Positions 51,156 through 57,641 of a stretch of 58,132 nt of DNA are shown one piece after another. Positions within the stretch are counted from its first letter, which is position 1. Each line of letters begins with the position of its first letter. This stretch comes from Candidatus Saccharimonadota bacterium (GTDB taxonomy: Bacteria; Patescibacteriota; Saccharimonadia; Saccharimonadales; OFTM59), in the NCBI GenBank assembly GCA_029260855.1, contig JAJDCK010000002.1, forward strand, positions 1-58,132, in the 5' to 3' direction. The translations under genes were made by a program, and so were the position numbers. The notes under the pieces are model-generated. The model searched no databases and was not told the origin of the DNA. It saw only the letters and a program-made list of their open reading frames with translations.

Positions 51156-54100
51156 CTATGTGCTCATTCCAGCCCAAAAAGCAGCATTGGCAGACGTTAT
51201 AGAGTTCGTGAGATTCACCGAGCTTATGGTTGTTTGACCGCCCGTAGTAACAGTAGCAAACTTTGATACAGCAAGCGCAAGACCAACATTACCTAGTCCT
51301 GGAGTAACTGTGCCCCGAGCAAATAATGGCATTGTCGTGCCGTTACAAAGAAACGCAATATAATAATCAGTCCCTAGTATTACTGCTTGGCCGGTGATAG
51401 TTGCTGTTTTTGTTCCTGTGGTGTTCCATTGAGCAGACATGTCTGTTGGAGATAGTTGGAGTAGCGCGCCGTTAGCATCTAACAAGGCCATGCAACACTG
51501 CCCGCCACCTGTAAGCGTGACACCGCCCGTTTGCACGGCCGAGTATAGCTTGGTAATCGTTTCGGACCTGAGCGCTGTAACGCGATTGAGATATATGATG
51601 CCGGAAACCAGCTGCGAGTTGTTAGAGGCAGATTCCGGATCAAGCGTTACAGCGTTTAGGCCGCGCTTTGAGGGGTGGGCAACAAACACGGTACTAATAA
51701 GACTGTCCGAACCCCCTGCCGCATGTGTAGTGGCATGTGTCGTAACCGATGCTGTTGGATAAGCGGCCGACTGCACCCAAGCAGCACCGTTGTGCACTAA
51801 TTCAATTGTAGAGACCGAAGCAGCGGCTGCCTGGGGCTGCCATGTTATGGATGACAGACTTCCGCCCCATGTAATAGCATGGTTACCCGTGCCGTCCTGC
51901 GTTAGAACTAGCATTAGACGTCCACCAGCAACAGGGTGTGTGGGGGCGTATATATCAACCCCCTGGTCAAGCGTTAGTGTGTGCACATGCCCAGACCGTG
52001 AGTCAGGTGTATAACTACCGCCCAGAGACGATGCGCTTCCGGCAGCATGAAGTTCGTGTCCACCCGTCAGCTGCACTAAATTAGTACCATCGGGTGAGAT
52101 AAAACGGAGGGCAGTAGTAGCATTTGGCGTTGGGTCCAATCGGAAATCGTAGTTGATCCCGTATACTCCATTAAACGCCATGCTGCGTCCGCCAGTACCG
52201 TCTTGTGTCAGGAGCAGGGTCAGCTCAGCACCAGGTGTCAAGTTGTTGGGTGAGCTTATTGTCGTCTGACCCGAGCCGTTACCACTGTCCAGTAAAACCT
52301 GGTGGATTCTAGCAACCCGCAGGTTAGGCTTGTATGTCCCTGCTGTCGGAGTCTGCAGGGAAGATCCTCCAGCATTATAGTAGGCGGAATTGAGTCGCGA
52401 ACTGACTTGGTTCCAAGAGATACCATCATAGATAAAAGAAACAGCACTAACCGCACTGGAATTAAAGTCAACTACCGAACCACTTAGCTTAAAAACCGCA
52501 TCAAATGTCACCAGTACACCACCGGCAACTGGCTGAGTAAAGATCAGTGTCAGCTGTTGACCGCGAAAACAAGGCCCACTAGTGTTACCGATTAGATTAT
52601 CCATTACTGGTGCGGCCACTGTTAGCGGGACGTCGGTTGCAAGACTGACTTCATTGATACCGCCTCGGTTTGGATCTGGAGTAAAAGTACCAGTACTCGT
52701 TGTGACAGTCCCTATGGTTCTGACGCCTAATTGGCTCCCGCAGATCACAGAATTGTTAACCGGGTCATTGTTAATCGTACTGACAGCGTGCGAGGCTGAT
52801 TGTAGGGTAATCGAGTTTCGGATTGGGAAGTTAATGAAATCTAGCGCAGATTGTTGGGTAGCCTGAGCACCCCCAAAACCATTATTGCCAGGCAAACGGT
52901 CAATTGCTAATACCCGAAATGCGCAGTTCGCTGAAGCATCTAGCTGCATACCATAACCGATGATTCCAGACTGGCCATTTGAATCTGGTATTCCAAGACC
53001 GTGGCCATTTGAATCAACAATAAAATCGCCCTGGCAACGCGTGGATCTTACGACAACACCATGCCGCCAGTTGTCTTGGGCTTCACACGAAGCGAATACC
53101 TGCCTGCCCGACACAATAAGCCACCCATCCCCATGGTTGCCGTCAAGTCTTCCACAAAAATATGCTTTGCAGGTCGCCCAACGGACATTACCGCCACCCG
53201 CATAAATGCCCTCTAACCCACAGTCGCCAATATGAATATTGACGTGCGTACCATCGGAGGAGCCGTCACGAAAACCTTGTCCGTCACAGGACTCAACCTT
53301 GAGATCAGTTACATGATCACCAGTGCTGCGTTGCGTGCCGATTGGTGTGTTGCCGTCAATCGCCAGACCATGCCCTGACGCTCCGGAAACTACTACATTA
53401 GATACGACGGGCTCTGAATCAACAACACTAAAAGCGGTCGGGGTTGCGGCCTCGCTGGTTAGATAAATACCGTTTATAACCAGTTGCACGCTATCCCCTG
53501 ATGAGTGGCTTGTTGCTGTTGTCCCCTGCCAGCCACGCCCAGTTGGCACGGCAACAAAACCATTAGTTGCAGAAGCAGCCTGCTGAGGTGTCAATGTATT
53601 GCCAGATTTTGCGGTGATTTGAATTGTTTCTACACCTATACGAATACGGAACGGTGCGGTTGGTAATATCGATCCGTCCGACACTGTGAAGCTGGCCTCG
53701 GTTGCACCGTCTGCAATCCCCGAAGTCAAGGTACAGGCCGCGCCATTTTGCTGCCCTACCTGGCGTTTTCTGTTACCACACACCCAAATATTACGAATAC
53801 TAAGAAGTTCCGCTAGACCGTTGTAGGATTCAATGATTCCCGAACCGGTGGCATTAAAAGTTGCTGACCCACTAGTGCCGTTGTATGAAAAAGTAGTCCC
53901 GCCGATTTTGGAGTTATTAGCTAGCAGTATGACACTCCCCCAGCCATCGCCGACCACTGATGCGTGTGACGGCACGAGGATTTTTTCAGAGGTCACATAG
54001 CTACCAGTACCTCTGTCCGGAAAATAAAGCGTGCCACCAACTACGCCGTCTGCCAACATGGCAGCAACTGCCGCTTGAATATATGGGGCCCAGTCGTTTG

Positions 54101-54938
54101 AAGCCGTTGTTGAAGGGCTCGGTGATGAATTGGCAGGGATTGGCCCATTAGCAACAAACCCGACTGGCGCGAATTTGGTAACGTCGTAAACCGGCCCATT
54201 GAATCTATCTACATAGGCTTTTGTGGCAGCATCCTGTGCAGATAGTGGGTCGGACATGTTCGTTGCTTTTTGGGAGTTAAACGATAGATCGCTCGTTGGA
54301 TCAGCAAGCTCGTCAAGGCGTAAAACATCACTACCTCCATCCTTATGGGTGGTAGCGTGTGTTGTTGGGGTGCGCGAATCCGTCAAGCGTGAATCATCTG
54401 CAACAACAACCCCCGTACCATTAATTGTGACTCCACCTGTAAAATCTTTGGCGCCAGTAACGTTTTCCGTACCGGCAAGGTGGACCACAGCACTGTCATC
54501 AGCTTTGCCGCCCAAACTAGTGTCTAACCCTGCTATTTTAGACTGTGCAATCGCAGCTGAATCATTAACGTCGGCGTTAATAATCACTCCTGCAGCTATC
54601 TGGGGACTGGTAGCTGTACCGCTTAAGTCACCAGCAAGCTGAACCACACCTTTGGTAGCAGCGTCAGCATCTGGGGTTCCCGCGCTAACTGTGTTATCTA
54701 CATACTGTTTCGTGGCAGCCTGCAGAGGAGCAGCAGGATCAGCCGGAAGGTTTACCGTACCCGTGAAGGTCGGACTAGCAAGTGGGGCCTTACCGCCTAA
54801 ATCGTTGGTGAGATTAGTAATCTTAGCTTGCGATAGTGGCTTCTGGGTACCGTCAGCATTATGTTCAACACTTAGATAGTCATTGAGTATGCTACCCCAC
54901 GTACCGGAATCAGAGCCGGGACTGGGCAACCTTGCCAT
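51156..54938 (-). CDS. Large phage tail-fibre/tailspike-like protein with beta-helix domain, no signal peptide
   Basis: N-terminal MARLP.PG.D.G.WG.ILN, fibre repeats AATKQYVD / AATKAYVD / TKGVVQLAG, HATTH..GGSD twice, pectate-lyase-like central region, three L.L..TQ..G repeats. Confidence 0.75.
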   Translation of the reverse strand: MARLPSPGSDSGTWGSILNDYLSVEHNADGTQKPLSQAKITNLTNDLGGKAPLASPTFTGTVNLPADPAAPLQAATKQYVDNTVSAGTPDADAATKGVVQLAGDLSGTATSPQIAAGVIINADVNDSAAIAQSKIAGLDTSLGGKADDSAVVHLAGTENVTGAKDFTGGVTINGTGVVVADDSRLTDSRTPTTHATTHKDGGSDVLRLDELADPTSDLSFNSQKATNMSDPLSAQDAATKAYVDRFNGPVYDVTKFAPVGFVANGPIPANSSPSPSTTASNDWAPYIQAAVAAMLADGVVGGTLYFPDRGTGSYVTSEKILVPSHASVVGDGWGSVILLANNSKIGGTTFSYNGTSGSATFNATGSGIIESYNGLAELLSIRNIWVCGNRKRQVGQQNGAACTLTSGIADGATEASFTVSDGSILPTAPFRIRIGVETIQITAKSGNTLTPQQAASATNGFVAVPTGRGWQGTTATSHSSGDSVQLVINGIYLTSEAATPTAFSVVDSEPVVSNVVVSGASGHGLAIDGNTPIGTQRSTGDHVTDLKVESCDGQGFRDGSSDGTHVNIHIGDCGLEGIYAGGGNVRWATCKAYFCGRLDGNHGDGWLIVSGRQVFASCEAQDNWRHGVVVRSTRCQGDFIVDSNGHGLGIPDSNGQSGIIGYGMQLDASANCAFRVLAIDRLPGNNGFGGAQATQQSALDFINFPIRNSITLQSASHAVSTINNDPVNNSVICGSQLGVRTIGTVTTSTGTFTPDPNRGGINEVSLATDVPLTVAAPVMDNLIGNTSGPCFRGQQLTLIFTQPVAGGVLVTFDAVFKLSGSVVDFNSSAVSAVSFIYDGISWNQVSSRLNSAYYNAGGSSLQTPTAGTYKPNLRVARIHQVLLDSGNGSGQTTISSPNNLTPGAELTLLLTQDGTGGRSMAFNGVYGINYDFRLDPTPNATTALRFISPDGTNLVQLTGGHELHAAGSASSLGGSYTPDSRSGHVHTLTLDQGVDIYAPTHPVAGGRLMLVLTQDGTGNHAITWGGSLSSITWQPQAAAASVSTIELVHNGAAWVQSAAYPTASVTTHATTHAAGGSDSLISTVFVAHPSKRGLNAVTLDPESASNNSQLVSGIIYLNRVTALRSETITKLYSAVQTGGVTLTGGGQCCMALLDANGALLQLSPTDMSAQWNTTGTKTATITGQAVILGTDYYIAFLCNGTTMPLFARGTVTPGLGNVGLALAVSKFATVTTGGQTTISSVNLTNSITSANAAFWAGMST

Positions 54939-55201: not shown

Positions 55202-55417
55202 TCATGTATTGGTACGGTCTTGGCCGCGACGGCGCCTTGAGCGAACAATCCACACACTAACAATAATGCATAGAACGCCAAAGATAATTCCAGGCAATAT
55301 CATCTGCCCCGTATTGGCCAACCTAGACCCATGTTCTGTCACATCGCCGTAGATACTGCTCCCGTAGGCTTCTCGACCATACTGGGCGATGGTCGTAAAA
55401 ATAACTGCTTGCATCAC
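55202..55417 (-). CDS. Small protein with YG repeats and LAxTG sortase sorting signal
   Basis: QYGREAYGSSIYGD, then LANTG + hydrophobic helix + RSRRRR tail. Confidence 0.8.
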   Translation of the reverse strand: MMQAVIFTTIAQYGREAYGSSIYGDVTEHGSRLANTGQMILPGIIFGVLCIIVSVWIVRSRRRRGQDRTNT

Positions 55418-55420
55418 GCA

Positions 55421-55612
55421 CTACCGTCCATAGGGGCTTACGCCGTAGCCAGAGAGGGCTTTATCGTGATCTTGCGTGCTACTTAAACTGCTAAGATTGT
55501 TAAGTATCGAAGTTACGCCTACCACCGCCAGCAACCCGGCTATCATGTACTTAATAAACTCTTTCCTGGACATGTCTTTCTCTAATAGTTCGTGTATGTT
55601 GAAACGTGCCAT
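55421..55612 (-). CDS. Small protein with Tat-like (RK) signal anchor and C-terminal GYGxxxYG
   Basis: SRKEFIK matches S-R-R-x-F-L-K with R to K, followed by a hydrophobic helix. Ends GYGVSPYGR. Confidence 0.75.
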   Translation of the reverse strand: MARFNIHELLEKDMSRKEFIKYMIAGLLAVVGVTSILNNLSSLSSTQDHDKALSGYGVSPYGR

Positions 55613-55722
55613 AGCTACCTTGTTTTTATAGTGTTGCTGTGTTTGTGTGATCTACTCTTGATTGTAATACCTGTTGTGCTTATGTCAAGCTGCTTGGTAA
55701 GTCCTATGTCATAATCAATGCA

Positions 55723-56298
55723 ATGAGTTTGAGAGTTATTAATAATATTTTGGCGTTTGTTGTCATAATCATTGGGCTATACCTAGTGTTGTCCCCTTTT
55801 ATCCCTGACCTCTTATATAAGATAAGAAAGGTGTCACAAAATACCAAAATTCAAGCGCAAACCAGCAAGCTGAATCAGCCACCCATTGAGTCTGATATTC
55901 CTTCTGATAATCGTTTGCAAATACCTAAGCTCTCTCTTGACGAGAGGATCTATGAAGGCCGCTCTATCAATCTTATAAGTAAGGGCGGTACTTGGTTGCG
56001 GCCCTCAACTGCTAACCCAAGTGAGTCTGGCAACAGCGTTATTGTCGGGCACCGCTTCAACTACAATCGACCGGCGACATTTTATAATCTAGATAAGCTG
56101 GTATTCAAAGACAAAATCGCCGTTTTCTGGGAGAAAAAACGATATATTTACGAAGTATACGAGGTCCTTACTGTCAGCCCGTCTGATGTAAGCATAGAGG
56201 CAAGTACCGATAAACCAGGGCTCACACTTTATACCTGCACGCCGCTTTGGACAGCCCGCCAACGATTAGTCATAAAAACAAGGCTGGTTGAAGAATGA
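55723..56298 (+). CDS. Sortase (class D/E-like)
   Basis: N-terminal TM, RLQIPKL, GNSVIVGHR (His), LTLYTCTP (Cys), RLVI (Arg). Confidence 0.92.
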   Translation: MSLRVINNILAFVVIIIGLYLVLSPFIPDLLYKIRKVSQNTKIQAQTSKLNQPPIESDIPSDNRLQIPKLSLDERIYEGRSINLISKGGTWLRPSTANPSESGNSVIVGHRFNYNRPATFYNLDKLVFKDKIAVFWEKKRYIYEVYEVLTVSPSDVSIEASTDKPGLTLYTCTPLWTARQRLVIKTRLVEE

Positions 56299-56438: not shown

Positions 56439-57413
56439 TCAGCTAACAATAGTCCTTATGTGCCTCCGAGCAGACGGTCTCCTGGCATCAGTTCTTTGTT
56501 GACTTGTCTGATGTCGCGAGTGACCGGTATGATCGGGAGACAGCACATCCATTACCCGTCTACGTATTGGACTTGAAGGCTTTTGAGCCCGATTTGCTAA
56601 ACCTGGTGGTGGCTTTGCGAACACAACATCAGGCGGACTGGTGGTTTTACTATATTGTTCGCTTGGGCTGTTTTGTTGGGTTTGTGCGTGTTTGCGCGAA
56701 CCGCGGTTAGTAACCCAAACCATAATAATGCCCACTTGGTACAAGAATATGATCGGCAGGGCCATAATCGCTTGGTTAAGCGGATCTGGGGTTGGCGTCA
56801 AGACGGCGGCAAGGATAAAGCTGAACACAATAACATAGCGCTGAAACTTCATCATCCCGCCGGGTTTGAGCGGTTTGATTCGGTTAACGAACAACAGGAT
56901 CAGTGGCGTTTGAAATATCAGTGCGAAGCCTATTATGTATGTCAAAGCAAAATTAAAGTATTCGTCAGCCCCGATCAAAGACTGAATGTTCGACCCACCA
57001 AAACTTGTCAGGAAGTGCAGTGCCGCAGGTAAACTAACGAAGTAGCCGAATAGCACCCCAAGAATCGCCAAGATAAAGGCCCATACGACGTATTTTACGA
57101 TAATACCTGTGTGATGCTTCTTCAAAAGTGGTGCTACAAAACAAAAAATCTGATACAACACAAAAGGCAGCGCTGCCACAAAACCGGTTGCAAGACACAG
57201 CTTAAAGATAAAATTGAACCCGCCAACTGGCGACGTATAATACAGGGTCTCTCCCAGTGGCTGCTGAATAAACCAGAGCAGCTTCTCGTGGAACAAATAA
57301 GCTACAGCCCCGAAAGCACCTATAGAAATCAGGCTAAGAGTCAACCTGAGCTGAAGTTCGCGCACATGCTCTATGAACGGTCTGCGAATAGTGCCGTATT
57401 CCGCACTATTCAT
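56439..57413 (-). CDS. tatC: Twin-arginine translocase subunit TatC (divergent, long C-tail)
   Basis: EHVREL..RL, YQ...FVAP.L, G....YF...P, LTPTPDP.NQ...A.P...LY. Confidence 0.93.
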   Translation of the reverse strand: MNSAEYGTIRRPFIEHVRELQLRLTLSLISIGAFGAVAYLFHEKLLWFIQQPLGETLYYTSPVGGFNFIFKLCLATGFVAALPFVLYQIFCFVAPLLKKHHTGIIVKYVVWAFILAILGVLFGYFVSLPAALHFLTSFGGSNIQSLIGADEYFNFALTYIIGFALIFQTPLILLFVNRIKPLKPGGMMKFQRYVIVFSFILAAVLTPTPDPLNQAIMALPIIFLYQVGIIMVWVTNRGSRKHAQTQQNSPSEQYSKTTSPPDVVFAKPPPGLANRAQKPSSPIRRRVMDVLSPDHTGHSRHQTSQQRTDARRPSARRHIRTIVS

Positions 57414-57434: not shown

Positions 57435-57641
57435 TTACTTCTGTTCAGTGTTTTTGTCGTCATTCTGTGATGCTGTTTTGTCTTTTTTATCCATGTTAGC
57501 CAATCCCCCGTCAAACCCTTTTTTGAGCTCTCCAGCTGACTCGCCCAAACTACGTGCTAGCTTTGGGAGCCTTGTTGCGCCAAACAGTAACAGTAGTATT
57601 ACTAATATAATTATTAGTTCCGGTAGCCCTAAACCAAACAT
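57435..57641 (-). CDS. tatA: Twin-arginine translocase subunit TatA/E
   Basis: GLGLPELIIILVILLLLFGATRLPKLARSLG. Confidence 0.95.
   Translation of the reverse strand: MFGLGLPELIIILVILLLLFGATRLPKLARSLGESAGELKKGFDGGLANMDKKDKTASQNDDKNTEQK

What the first reader, a model, noticed from the sequence alone, without database searches (positions are those of the whole stretch)
56439..57413. TatC has lost acidic residues used for twin-arginine recognition
Seen, by manual alignment to E. coli TatC: FVAPLLKKHH (F92...H101) corresponds to FIAPALYKHE (F94...E103), so E103 becomes His. The TM4 Glu170 equivalent is Gln168 (LIFQTP), and LYE becomes LYQ. The E15 equivalent (E19) and the D211 equivalent (TPTPD) are kept. 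There is also an ~85-aa low-complexity C-tail. Established: E15 and E103 contact the RR pair. Inference: co-evolution with the adjacent RK signal, i.e. a dedicated rather than general Tat system.
Basis: partly seen in the sequence, partly recalled or inferred. Interest (0 to 1): 0.62.

Follow-up and report, generated by a model that had tools for sequence, protein, structure and literature searches.

The report
Saccharibacterial TatC lacks second-arginine glutamate
The only Tat export receptor of this tiny Saccharibacterium, like those of its whole class, has lost the glutamate that normally grips the second arginine of "twin-arginine" export signals, and the small signal-like protein inherited with it has stopped conserving exactly that arginine, a natural test of how these signals are read.

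Summary
TatC (56439-57413, minus strand) aligns to E. coli and Aquifex TatC with E103 as His101, E170 as Gln168 and E227 as Gln226. E15 (Glu19), F94, H12 and D211 are kept. The roughly 85-residue tail is disordered.

- Only E103 is a twin-arginine contact. Gln at 170 is the normal alternative, paired with Glu8 of TatA.
- The E103 loss is not special to this genome. 0 of 73 Saccharimonadia-type TatCs are acidic there, against 45 of 45 others. The position is hypervariable and no compensating acid appears.
- The neighbouring 63-aa signal-like mini-protein co-occurs with TatC. In 150 diverse relatives it keeps the first Arg (149/150) and the Phe (149/150), while the second position is K 60%, R 26% and uncharged 14%. 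This matches which TatC pockets are kept and which is lost.
- There is no residue-by-residue covariation.
- This genome has no canonical RR signal, so its Tat system is effectively single-client.
- Sister genomes with equally E103-less TatC encode proteins with perfect SRRxFLK signals. The receptor is therefore relaxed, not re-specified for Arg-Lys.

I rate it a new variant of a known kind.

The parts
56439..57413 (-). tatC, 324 aa. It is the only TatC in the 790-kb genome.
   Evidence: PF00902 181 bits. TIGR00945 153 bits, above its cut-off. AF2 plus Foldseek match to 4b4a at TM 0.85. Single copy in the genome.
57111..57113 (-). His101 codon (CAC), the E. coli E103 position, which salt-bridges the second Arg of the signal. 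The glutamate is lost.
   Evidence: 0 of 73 of this clade are acidic here, against 45 of 45 other TatCs. It sits at the N-cap of TM3 in the model.
57120..57122 (-). Lys98 codon, the E. coli Y100 position, which packs against the second Arg. The tyrosine is absent, but Y100 is poorly conserved outside Proteobacteria.
   Evidence: Only 8 of 45 outgroup TatCs have Tyr here.
57357..57368 (-). His16...Glu19, the E. coli H12 and E15 positions. They form the first-Arg and Phe pockets and are kept.
   Evidence: Glu is kept in 69 of 70 of the clade. Residue roles are from PMC13323110.
57138..57140 (-). Phe92, the E. coli F94 position. It stacks on the first Arg and forms part of the Phe pocket. It is kept.
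   Evidence: F in 120 of 120 homologues.
56910..56912 (-). Gln168, the E. coli E170 position in TM4. This is the normal Glu/Gln alternative, not an RR contact.
   Evidence: Q in 120 of 120 homologues. 17 of 45 outgroups also have Q. Chloroplast cpTatC Q234 pairs with Tha4 E10 (PMC3987133).
56736..56738 (-). Gln226, the E. coli E227 position (LYE becomes LYQ). It is a class-discriminating column whose role I could not establish.
   Evidence: Outgroups are 89% Glu. None of the papers I read mentions this residue.
56442..56696 (-). Disordered basic, Ser/Pro/Gln-rich C-terminal tail (residues about 240-324), a class-wide extension.
   Evidence: pLDDT 52-60. Median length is 325 aa in the clade against 262 aa in other TatCs.
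56535..56564 (-). Conserved short motif in the tail, RRRVMDVLSP (residues 284-293, Asp289). The pattern is hydrophobic-hydrophobic-D-[IVLG]-hydrophobic-x-P.
   Evidence: It is the only clade-specific conserved acidic column (D in 44 of 73). No pLDDT rise is seen in the monomer model.
57435..57641 (-). tatA, 68 aa, the single TatA/B-family gene. It has Glu8 (57618-57620) and the Gly21 hinge.
   Evidence: PF02416 46.5 bits. TIGR01411 55.4 bits. Glu8 is conserved in relatives as 'PEL'. Single copy in the genome.
55421..55612 (-). 63-aa mini-protein that is essentially a Tat-type signal: helix cap Ser15, Arg16, Lys17, Glu18, Phe19, Ile20, an h-region, a basic c-region and a GYGVSPYG tail. It is the only Tat-signal-like protein in the genome.
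   Evidence: NF038009 E 1.5e-12, 47.5 bits, below the cut-off of 100. An HMM of its signal region finds only itself in the genome. It co-occurs with TatC in 19 of 20 TatC-positive genomes.
55202..55417 (-). 71-aa YG-repeat protein with a LANTG sorting signal, a TM segment and an RRRR tail. It has no evident signal peptide and is in frame with the mini-protein across a TAG stop.
55723..56298 (+). Sortase gene lying between tatC and the mini-protein.
   Evidence: PF04203 90.8 bits.

Best explanation
This is the receptor subunit of a minimal TatA-TatC translocase whose twin-arginine site has been cut down to a single-arginine site.

What was lost and what was kept (shown):
- The common ancestor of Saccharimonadia TatC lost Glu103, the carboxylate that salt-bridges the second arginine.
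- The position then drifted freely to S, L, T, H, A, V, N and so on. It is His here.
- The first-Arg contact (Glu19 and Phe92), the pocket for the consensus Phe (His16, Phe92), the TatA-binding polar cluster (Thr206, Gln214) and the TM4 Gln that pairs with TatA Glu8 all stayed under selection.

How it is inferred to work:
- Recognition now rests on helix cap-R-x-x-F-(L/I) plus a fairly hydrophobic h-region.
- A positive charge at position 2 is preferred, probably for lipid head-group contact, but is not required.

Clients:
- The co-inherited 63-aa signal-only mini-protein 0.8 kb away shows exactly this pattern. In this genome it is the only protein with such a signal, so the system is effectively single-client here.
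- The receptor is relaxed rather than re-specified, because sister genomes with the same TatC type also carry proteins with perfect SRRxFLK signals.
- Export of the mini-protein by Tat, and tolerance of R-K and R-A signals, are inferences and were not tested.
For: Residue mapping.

Structural roles of residues: the first Arg contacts E15 and F94, the second Arg contacts E103 and Y100, and the Phe sits in a pocket of F94, L9, H12 and L13 (PMC13323110).

Clade contrast: 0 of 73 against 45 of 45 acidic at column 103. E15 is kept in 69 of 70. 14 of 14 other Patescibacteria TatCs keep E103, as do 31 of 31 TatCs from other phyla.

Tree: 42 of the 44 acid-103 sequences sit behind one 100/100 split, and a single origin is not ruled out.

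No relocated acid: no core column gains D or E, and 58 of 73 have no D or E in columns 98-107.

Mini-protein motif:
- 51 unique TatC/mini pairs: R1 51/51; position 2 is K 36, R 8, A 4, Q 2, S 1.
- 150 representatives of clusters at 50% identity: R1 149/150, F 149/150; position 2 is K 90, R 39, other 21.

Linkage: TatC and the mini-protein are both present in 19 genomes, both absent in 19, and discordant in 3 of 41.

Own genome: no TIGR01409 or PF10518 match over cut-off, and the best hit is antisense to glyS. An HMM of the mini-protein's signal finds only the mini-protein itself (E 8e-20, next best 1.1).

Precedent: in E. coli, TatC E103K and F94D are bypassed by more hydrophobic h-regions, and an unpaired Arg suffices (PMC5539426). 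Best-13-residue Kyte-Doolittle hydropathy of mini-protein h-regions has a median of 2.3, against about 2.0 for RR cargo of relatives.
Against: - Canonical SRRxFL[KR] signals sit on 270-390-aa proteins in 5 of 20 TatC-positive relatives. One of them keeps SRRNFL[KR] in a homologue of only 50% identity. This suggests the second Arg can still be under selection without E103.
- 26% of mini-proteins still have RR.
- There is no residue-level covariation.
- The four or five mini-protein homologues next to E103-keeping TatCs are RR, RR, KR and KK (plus a weak RR), so relaxation is not exclusive to E103-less lineages. The sample is small.
- No transport experiment exists.
Confidence: 0.55

Rival explanations
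1. Compensated site. Twin-arginine recognition is intact because something else takes over the role of Glu103, such as lipid head groups, a TatA residue, or the conserved Asp in the Saccharimonadia-specific C-tail motif folding back. On this view the variable second position of the mini-protein is a peculiarity of that one family.
For: - Canonical SRRxFLK proteins occur in TatC-positive relatives.
- SRRNFL[KR] is conserved between homologues of 50% identity while the flanking residues diverged.
- The second Arg also faces lipid head groups in the E. coli structure.
- The tail carries the only clade-specific conserved acidic column.
Against: - Those RR proteins were found with a profile that demands RR, so the sample is biased by how it was found.
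- They are unrelated singletons. For the one tested (L138), no orthologue was found in 40 relatives, so RR may simply be recent inheritance.
- Two TatC-negative genomes have such proteins too.
- No core column gains an acid.
- The tail is predicted disordered, with no pLDDT rise at the motif.
Confidence: 0.2
2. The mini-protein is not a cargo but a resident subunit or adaptor. It sits permanently in the signal-binding groove of TatC, like a built-in signal peptide, or lends its signal and anchor to signal-less YG-motif surface proteins that ride along. High-affinity, reversible RR reading became unnecessary, and E103 decayed.
For: - Co-inheritance and adjacency are near-perfect.
- The protein is little more than a signal plus a GYGSSxYGG tail.
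- Its h-region is more hydrophobic and TM-like.
- YG-repeat sortase substrates without evident signal peptides lie nearby in several loci.
- NCBIfam labels the family 'Tat system-associated protein'.
- Earlier scan notes e1-5261439 and e1-5261437 propose the same idea. These are leads only.
Against: - There is no direct evidence of binding.
- E103-keeping lineages in the same phylum have the mini-protein too, so its presence does not by itself explain the E103 loss.
- One TatC-positive genome lacks it (G021).
- This idea is compatible with the best explanation rather than exclusive of it.
Confidence: 0.2
3. Decaying or non-functional Tat system. E103 loss marks a receptor that no longer binds signals and is on its way out, as the patchy distribution might suggest.
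For: - TatC is present in only 20 of 41 genomes of the order, and is absent from the same-genus genome.
- E103G and E103K cripple E. coli TatC (PMC3712464).
Against: - Reading frames are intact in all loci.
- 32 columns are invariant and 40 nearly invariant across 120 homologues of 42-68% identity, including every other functional residue.
- tatA, tatC and the mini-protein are co-retained.
- The trait is old and class-wide.
Confidence: 0.03

Closest known systems
Canonical TatC of TatABC/TatAC systems (E. coli TatC, PDB 9dzz/9e01; Aquifex aeolicus TatC, PDB 4b4a/4hts; Pfam PF00902, TIGR00945)
   Same: - Six-helix glove fold (Foldseek TM 0.85 to 4b4a).
- H12, E15, F94, P97, T208, P209-P210-D211 and Q215 equivalents are all present.
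- The gene lies next to tatA.
- It is a minimal TatAC organisation like that of Gram-positive bacteria.
   Different: - Glu103, treated as essential and used as a filter for genuine TatC (PMC5201420), is replaced by His here. It is never acidic in the whole class.
- There is an extra disordered C-tail of about 85 aa with a short conserved motif.
- Glu227 and a periplasmic acidic position (the E. coli S66 column) are also lost.
Haloarchaeal TatCt (14-TM fused double TatC), described as having two inactive RR sites (FEMS Microbiol Rev 2026, PMC13673990)
   Same: It is a natural TatC lineage in which the E103 position is no longer Glu.
   Different: - TatCt lacks both F94 and E103 and depends on a second, intact TatC (TatCo or TatCx).
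- Here Phe92 and Glu19 are kept, the protein has 6 TM helices, and it is the only TatC in the genome.
E. coli TatC E103K / F94D mutants rescued by hydrophobic signal peptides (Huang and Palmer 2017, PMC5539426)
   Same: The receptor lacks the E103 carboxylate. Function there depends on one basic residue plus a more hydrophobic h-region, and the mini-protein h-regions here are comparatively hydrophobic.
   Different: That is a laboratory suppressor situation. This is a natural, ancient and class-wide state.
Thylakoid cpTatC Gln234 paired with Tha4 Glu10 (PMC3987133)
   Same: TM4 Gln in TatC (Gln168) is combined with Glu8 in TatA. It is the same swapped polar pair.
   Different: None in this respect. 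It shows that the 'E170 loss' is ordinary.
NCBIfam NF038009, 'twin-arginine translocation system-associated protein' (about 70 aa)
   Same: The adjacent mini-protein matches it over positions 6-65 of the 70-position model (E 1.5e-12).
   Different: The score of 47.5 bits is below the curated cut-off of 100. I found no published functional description in the searches I ran (none targeted this family).

Membership tests
TatC (PF00902 / TIGR00945) | Profile match above the curated cut-offs | tested here: met
   PF00902 scores 181 bits against 25.1. TIGR00945 scores 153.4 against 132.7.
TatC (PF00902 / TIGR00945) | Six-TM glove fold | tested here: met
   The AF2 core has pLDDT above 90 with 8 helices. 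Foldseek matches 4b4a at TM 0.85 and rmsd 2.7 A.
TatC (PF00902 / TIGR00945) | Partner TatA/B-family gene | tested here: met
   tatA lies at 57435-57641, directly upstream on the same strand.
TatC (PF00902 / TIGR00945) | Polar cluster for the TatA/B Glu8 (T208, Q215) and a TM4 Glu or Gln | tested here: met
   Thr206, Gln214 and Gln168 are present, and TatA has Glu8.
Canonical twin-arginine recognition site of TatC | Glu15, with Phe94, contacting the first Arg | tested here: met
   Glu19 and Phe92 are present.
Canonical twin-arginine recognition site of TatC | Glu103 salt-bridging the second Arg | tested here: not met
   The residue is His101. 0 of 73 in the clade are acidic, against 45 of 45 elsewhere.
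Canonical twin-arginine recognition site of TatC | Hydrophobic pocket for the consensus Phe (L9, H12, L13, F94) | tested here: met
   Phe13, His16, Val17 and Phe92 are present.
Canonical twin-arginine recognition site of TatC | Exports RR-signal proteins and rejects signals without RR | not testable with these tools
   This needs transport assays. The genome has no RR signal over cut-off.
Haloarchaeal TatCt-type inactive TatC | Both F94 and E103 absent, fused 14-TM architecture, and an intact partner TatC in the genome | tested here: not met
   Phe92 is kept, the fold has 6 TM helices, and there is a single TatC in the genome.
NF038009 Tat-associated mini-protein (neighbouring gene) | Score above the curated cut-off (100 bits) | tested here: not met
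   The score is 47.5 bits, E 1.5e-12. A profile built here finds 1483 representative clusters.

The most novel reading that the evidence does not exclude
Saccharimonadia run a 'single-arginine' translocase. After losing Glu103, TatC reads only cap-R-x-x-F. In many genomes, including this one, its sole direct client is a signal-only mini-protein. That mini-protein acts as a detachable, trans-acting export signal and membrane anchor for signal-less YG-motif surface proteins (sortase substrates, fibre proteins). This would be a way of targeting folded cargo that has not been described for Tat.
Probability: 0.2. Interest if true: 0.85.

Novelty: new variant of a known kind. Interest (0 to 1): 0.6.

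Why it matters
Glu103 of TatC is treated in the field as essential. It is the salt-bridge partner of the second arginine in the 2026 cryo-EM structures. E103A, G and K variants are transport-dead controls. One co-evolution study discarded TatC sequences lacking it as irrelevant.

Here a whole bacterial class uses, as its only TatC, a well-conserved protein that lacks this residue. The co-inherited signal-like partner has relaxed exactly the matching arginine, while the first Arg and the Phe remain invariant. That is a natural counterpart of the laboratory result that the RR-E103 contact is not mechanistically required.

It gives a simple two- or three-gene system for asking what the second arginine is for. 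It also warns that RR-based predictors (TATFIND, TIGR01409, PF10518) will report 'no Tat substrates' for these episymbionts.

Tried and rejected
- Residue-level covariation between TatC column 103 and signal position 2: none. K pairs with H, S, T, L, A, Q, I, N, V, F and Y; R pairs with V, S, L, N and T.
- A relocated acidic residue in the TatC core: none found.
- Y100 as a second 'lost contact': dropped, because only 8 of 45 outgroup TatCs have Tyr.
- C-tail motif docking back on the core: the monomer model shows no pLDDT rise.
- Word-based homologue search with the mini-protein found only itself. It was replaced by a profile search.
- The search for related loci with an alignment of E103-keeping Patescibacteria TatCs failed, because no stretch was conserved enough. 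The order around G075 has only 27 genomes, so the E103-positive mini-protein sample stayed at four or five.
- Orthologues of RR cargo, to test whether the second Arg is conserved. L138 has none in 40 relatives. L132 has only two homologue clusters.
- A loose RR-plus-hydrophobic regex over the own genome gave only Sec-like anchors and antisense ORFs. The one sub-threshold TIGR01409 hit is antisense to glyS.
- dN/dS was not attempted, because the nearest DNA relatives are only about 58% identical in protein, so synonymous sites would be saturated.
Full report
**What is there.**
The window is contig C2 of a 790-kb, 97.7%-complete genome. Its TatC relatives are labelled Candidatus Saccharibacteria or Saccharimonadales.

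The minus strand at 57641 down to 55202 carries these genes:
- tatA (57435-57641)
- tatC (56439-57413)
- a 63-aa mini-protein (55421-55612)
- a 71-aa YG-repeat/LANTG protein (55202-55417)

A sortase gene lies on the plus strand at 55723-56298.

TatC is a full member of PF00902 and TIGR00945. It is the only TatC in the genome, and tatA is the only TatA/B-family gene. An AlphaFold2 model built on 120 homologues has mean pLDDT 81, with the core above 90. It superposes on Aquifex TatC 4b4a at TM 0.85.

**The observation.**

| E. coli residue | This TatC |
|---|---|
| F94 | Phe92 |
| Y100 | Lys98 |
| E103 | His101 |
| E170 | Gln168 |
| E227 | Gln226 |
| H12 | His16 (kept) |
| E15 | Glu19 (kept) |
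| T208 | Thr206 (kept) |
| D211 | Asp210 (kept) |
| Q215 | Gln214 (kept) |

In the model, residues 97-101 (LKKHH) form the short loop before TM3, so His101 is at the N-cap of TM3, where E103 sits. Residues 92-110 contain no Asp or Glu. The C-terminal 85 residues or so are predicted disordered (pLDDT 52-60).

**Which of these residues matter for RR recognition.**
The 2026 cryo-EM structure of E. coli TatBC with the MdoD signal (PMC13323110) shows three contacts:
- The first Arg is linked through a water molecule to E15 and stacks under F94.
- The second Arg is salt-bridged to E103 and packs on Y100.
- The consensus Phe sits in a pocket formed by F94, L9, H12 and L13.

So only E103 (and Y100) of the 'lost' residues belong to the RR site.

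E170 is a TM4 polar residue proposed to pair with the polar residue at position 8 of TatA. Chloroplast cpTatC has Gln234 there, opposite Tha4 Glu10 (PMC3987133). This locus has the same arrangement, Gln168 with TatA Glu8. In my sample 17 of 45 non-Saccharimonadia TatCs also have Gln. The 'E170 loss' is therefore ordinary.

Y100 is Tyr in only 8 of 45 outgroup TatCs, so its absence says little. E227 is Glu in 89% of outgroups and variable in this clade. None of the papers I read mentions this residue.

**How widespread the E103 loss is.**
- Among the 120 best database homologues, none has Glu at column 103 (H 39, Q 20, S 16, R 13, T 10, N 9, K 7...). Gln170 is present in 120 of 120 and Glu15 in 118 of 120.
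- I pooled whole-genome searches of 41 relatives and 401 genomes of the phylum with 80 named loci from GTDB species genomes. This gave 118 unique TatCs.
- Of these, 73 are Saccharimonadia-type with no acidic residue at 103 (S 14, L 10, T 9, H 8, A 7, V 5...). The other 45 are all acidic there (44 E, 1 D).
- The 45 comprise 14 from other Patescibacteria lineages and 31 from Chloroflexota, Thermodesulfobacteriota, Acidobacteriota, Pseudomonadota and others.
- In a maximum-likelihood tree, 42 of the 44 acid-103 sequences lie behind one 100/100 split. The other two are long-branch fused proteins. A single origin of the loss is not ruled out.
- No core column gains an acidic residue in the clade. 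58 of 73 have no D or E anywhere in columns 98-107.

The hypervariability of column 103 indicates that the site is simply unconstrained, not re-designed.

For comparison, E103G and E103K cripple E. coli TatC (PMC3712464). One co-evolution study removed TatC sequences lacking the 'essential' E103 as irrelevant (PMC5201420). A 2026 review of Tat evolution describes loss of F94 plus E103 only for haloarchaeal TatCt, which relies on a second intact TatC. That review does not mention Patescibacteria, CPR or Saccharibacteria (PMC13673990).

**The neighbouring signal.**
The 63-aa mini-protein reads MARFNIHELLEKDM-S-R-K-E-F-I-K-YMIAGLLAVVGVTSIL-NNLSS...GYGVSPYGR. It matches NCBIfam NF038009, 'twin-arginine translocation system-associated protein', at E 1.5e-12, below that model's cut-off.

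A homologue lies within 1.5-3 kb of TatC in most Saccharimonadia loci. In 41 genomes of the order, TatC and the mini-protein are both present in 19, both absent in 19 and discordant in 3.

Motif statistics:

| Sample | Helix cap | R1 | Position 2 | x | Phe |
|---|---|---|---|---|---|
| 51 unique TatC/mini pairs | S/D/T/N 50/51 | 51/51 | K 36, R 8, A 4, Q 2, S 1 | E/D/Q 49/51 | required by the search pattern |
| 150 representatives of 50%-identity clusters, out of 1483 at E <= 0.001 | D/S/T/N/E 150/150 | 149/150 | K 90, R 39, uncharged 21 | E 95, D 30, Q 16 | 149/150 |

Phe is invariant in the 16-sequence alignment.

The signal therefore keeps every feature whose TatC contact is kept (helix cap, first Arg, Phe). 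It has relaxed the one feature whose contact is gone.

Within the clade, residue 103 and position 2 do not covary. RR mini-proteins recur in at least five separate branches of the TatC tree, next to TatCs with V, S, L, N or T at 103.

**Is the system dedicated?**
In this genome, yes, in effect.
- TIGR01409 and PF10518 find nothing over cut-off, while they ring in 11 and 9 of 14 control genomes.
- The single sub-threshold hit is antisense to the glycyl-tRNA synthetase gene.
- An HMM of the mini-protein's signal region finds only the mini-protein in all six frames (E 8e-20, next best 1.1).

For the clade, no.
- TIGR01409 finds textbook signals on 270-390-aa proteins in five TatC-positive relatives: SRRNFLK, SRRGFLK, TRRDFIG, SRRGFLR and SRRQFLW. 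It also finds them in two TatC-negative relatives, which are among the less complete assemblies.
- These proteins are unrelated to one another and have no Pfam domain apart from the signal.
- One has no orthologue in 40 relatives.
- Another has a homologue of 50% identity that keeps SRRNFL[KR] while its flanks diverge.
- They were found with an RR-demanding profile, so they cannot say how common R-K signals are. They do show that E103-less TatC coexists with RR signals.
- Conversely, the mini-protein homologues next to E103-keeping TatCs of another Patescibacteria order read TRRDF, NRRDF, TKRQF and SKKEF. This sample is too small to test the correlation properly.

**Most likely mechanism.**
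This is a TatAC translocase whose receptor reads cap-R-x-x-F-(L/I) plus the h-region.

Loss of the E103 carboxylate removed the guanidinium-specific bidentate contact. Lys, which can still face lipid head groups as the second Arg does in E. coli, became the commonest residue, and uncharged residues are tolerated.

[quoted passage not shown] Mini-protein h-regions score a median of 2.3 (best 13-residue Kyte-Doolittle window). RR cargo of relatives score about 2.0.

Shown:
- the residue states
- their phylogenetic distribution
- the linkage of the mini-protein to TatC
- the motif statistics
- the absence of RR signals in this genome

Inferred:
- that TatC binds the mini-protein's motif
- that position 2 is functionally relaxed
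- that the mini-protein is transported or inserted by Tat

**Rivals.**
- *Compensation.* Another group replaces E103 and RR reading is intact. The RR cargo in relatives supports this. The tail motif hydrophobic-hydrophobic-D-[IVLG]-hydrophobic-x-P (RRRVMDVLSP here) holds the only clade-specific conserved acid. However, the tail is predicted disordered and there is no evidence that it docks on the core.
- *Resident adaptor.* The mini-protein is a permanent adaptor rather than a cargo. This is compatible with the main reading and was proposed in earlier notes of this scan, which I treat as leads. I independently confirmed only the co-occurrence.
- *Decay.* This is unlikely given 32 invariant and 40 nearly invariant columns across 120 homologues.

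**Novelty.**
I found no paper that describes E103-less TatC in Saccharibacteria or CPR. One genome paper only notes that Tat is rare in Saccharibacteria (PMC6031116).

Earlier notes of this scan report E103-less TatCs with R-L or R-K neighbours in an actinobacterium and in an Omnitrophota-like clade. These notes are unchecked. If they hold, the phenomenon may recur across bacteria.

I class this as a new variant of a known kind. A Tat specialist would find it moderately surprising, and it is directly testable with three small genes.

Noticed in passing
window 56535-56564 (-), TatC residues 284-293: The otherwise unconserved, disordered C-tail of Saccharimonadia TatCs carries a short conserved motif. 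The pattern is hydrophobic-hydrophobic-D-[IVLG]-hydrophobic-x-P. Here it reads RRRVMDVLSP, and variants include ...SIDGF..P. It holds the only clade-specific conserved acidic residue in the protein. Its function is unknown.
   Followed up: partly
window 55415-55423 (-): The mini-protein ORF ends in TAG. The 71-aa YG-repeat/LANTG ORF starts two codons later in the same frame (GTG ATG). The two could be one gene split by a stop, or a read-through pair. In relatives the mini-protein ends at the same place, so a separate gene seems normal.
   Followed up: partly
window 55661-55688 (-): A near-consensus sigma-70-like promoter (TTGACA, 16 nt spacer, TACAAT; 11 of 12 matches) lies just upstream of the mini-protein. 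This suggests it is transcribed separately from tatA-tatC.
   Followed up: no
TatC residues Tyr59, Gly64, Tyr159, Pro181 (window about 56871-57239, -): Further columns separate Saccharimonadia TatC from all others: E. coli A61 becomes Tyr, S66 (Glu/Asp in 71% of outgroups) becomes Gly, L161 becomes Tyr, and I183 becomes Pro. S66P inactivates E. coli TatC (PMC3712464).
   Followed up: no
L033:2243-2449, L041:1248-1415, L131:1205-1402 (other Patescibacteria order): Mini-protein homologues with a GFGNxGYG tail also sit next to E103-keeping TatCs outside Saccharimonadia, so the family is older than the E103 loss. One of them has Lys-Lys (SKKEFLK).
   Followed up: partly
L132:640-1647 (-) (G009) and protein P0123: A 330-aa protein with a perfect SRRNFLK Tat signal and an HExxH motif (HFAHETSH). 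It is a possible Tat-exported metalloprotease in a Saccharibacterium whose TatC lacks E103.
   Followed up: partly
genomes G001 (same genus) and G002 (same family): The whole tatA-tatC-mini-protein set is absent from the closest relatives (95-100% complete) but present in half of the order. The module is gained or lost often.
   Followed up: partly
window 51156-54938 (-): A 1260-aa fibre-like protein without a signal peptide lies directly downstream of the YG mini-proteins, on the same strand. I did not analyse it here.
   Followed up: no
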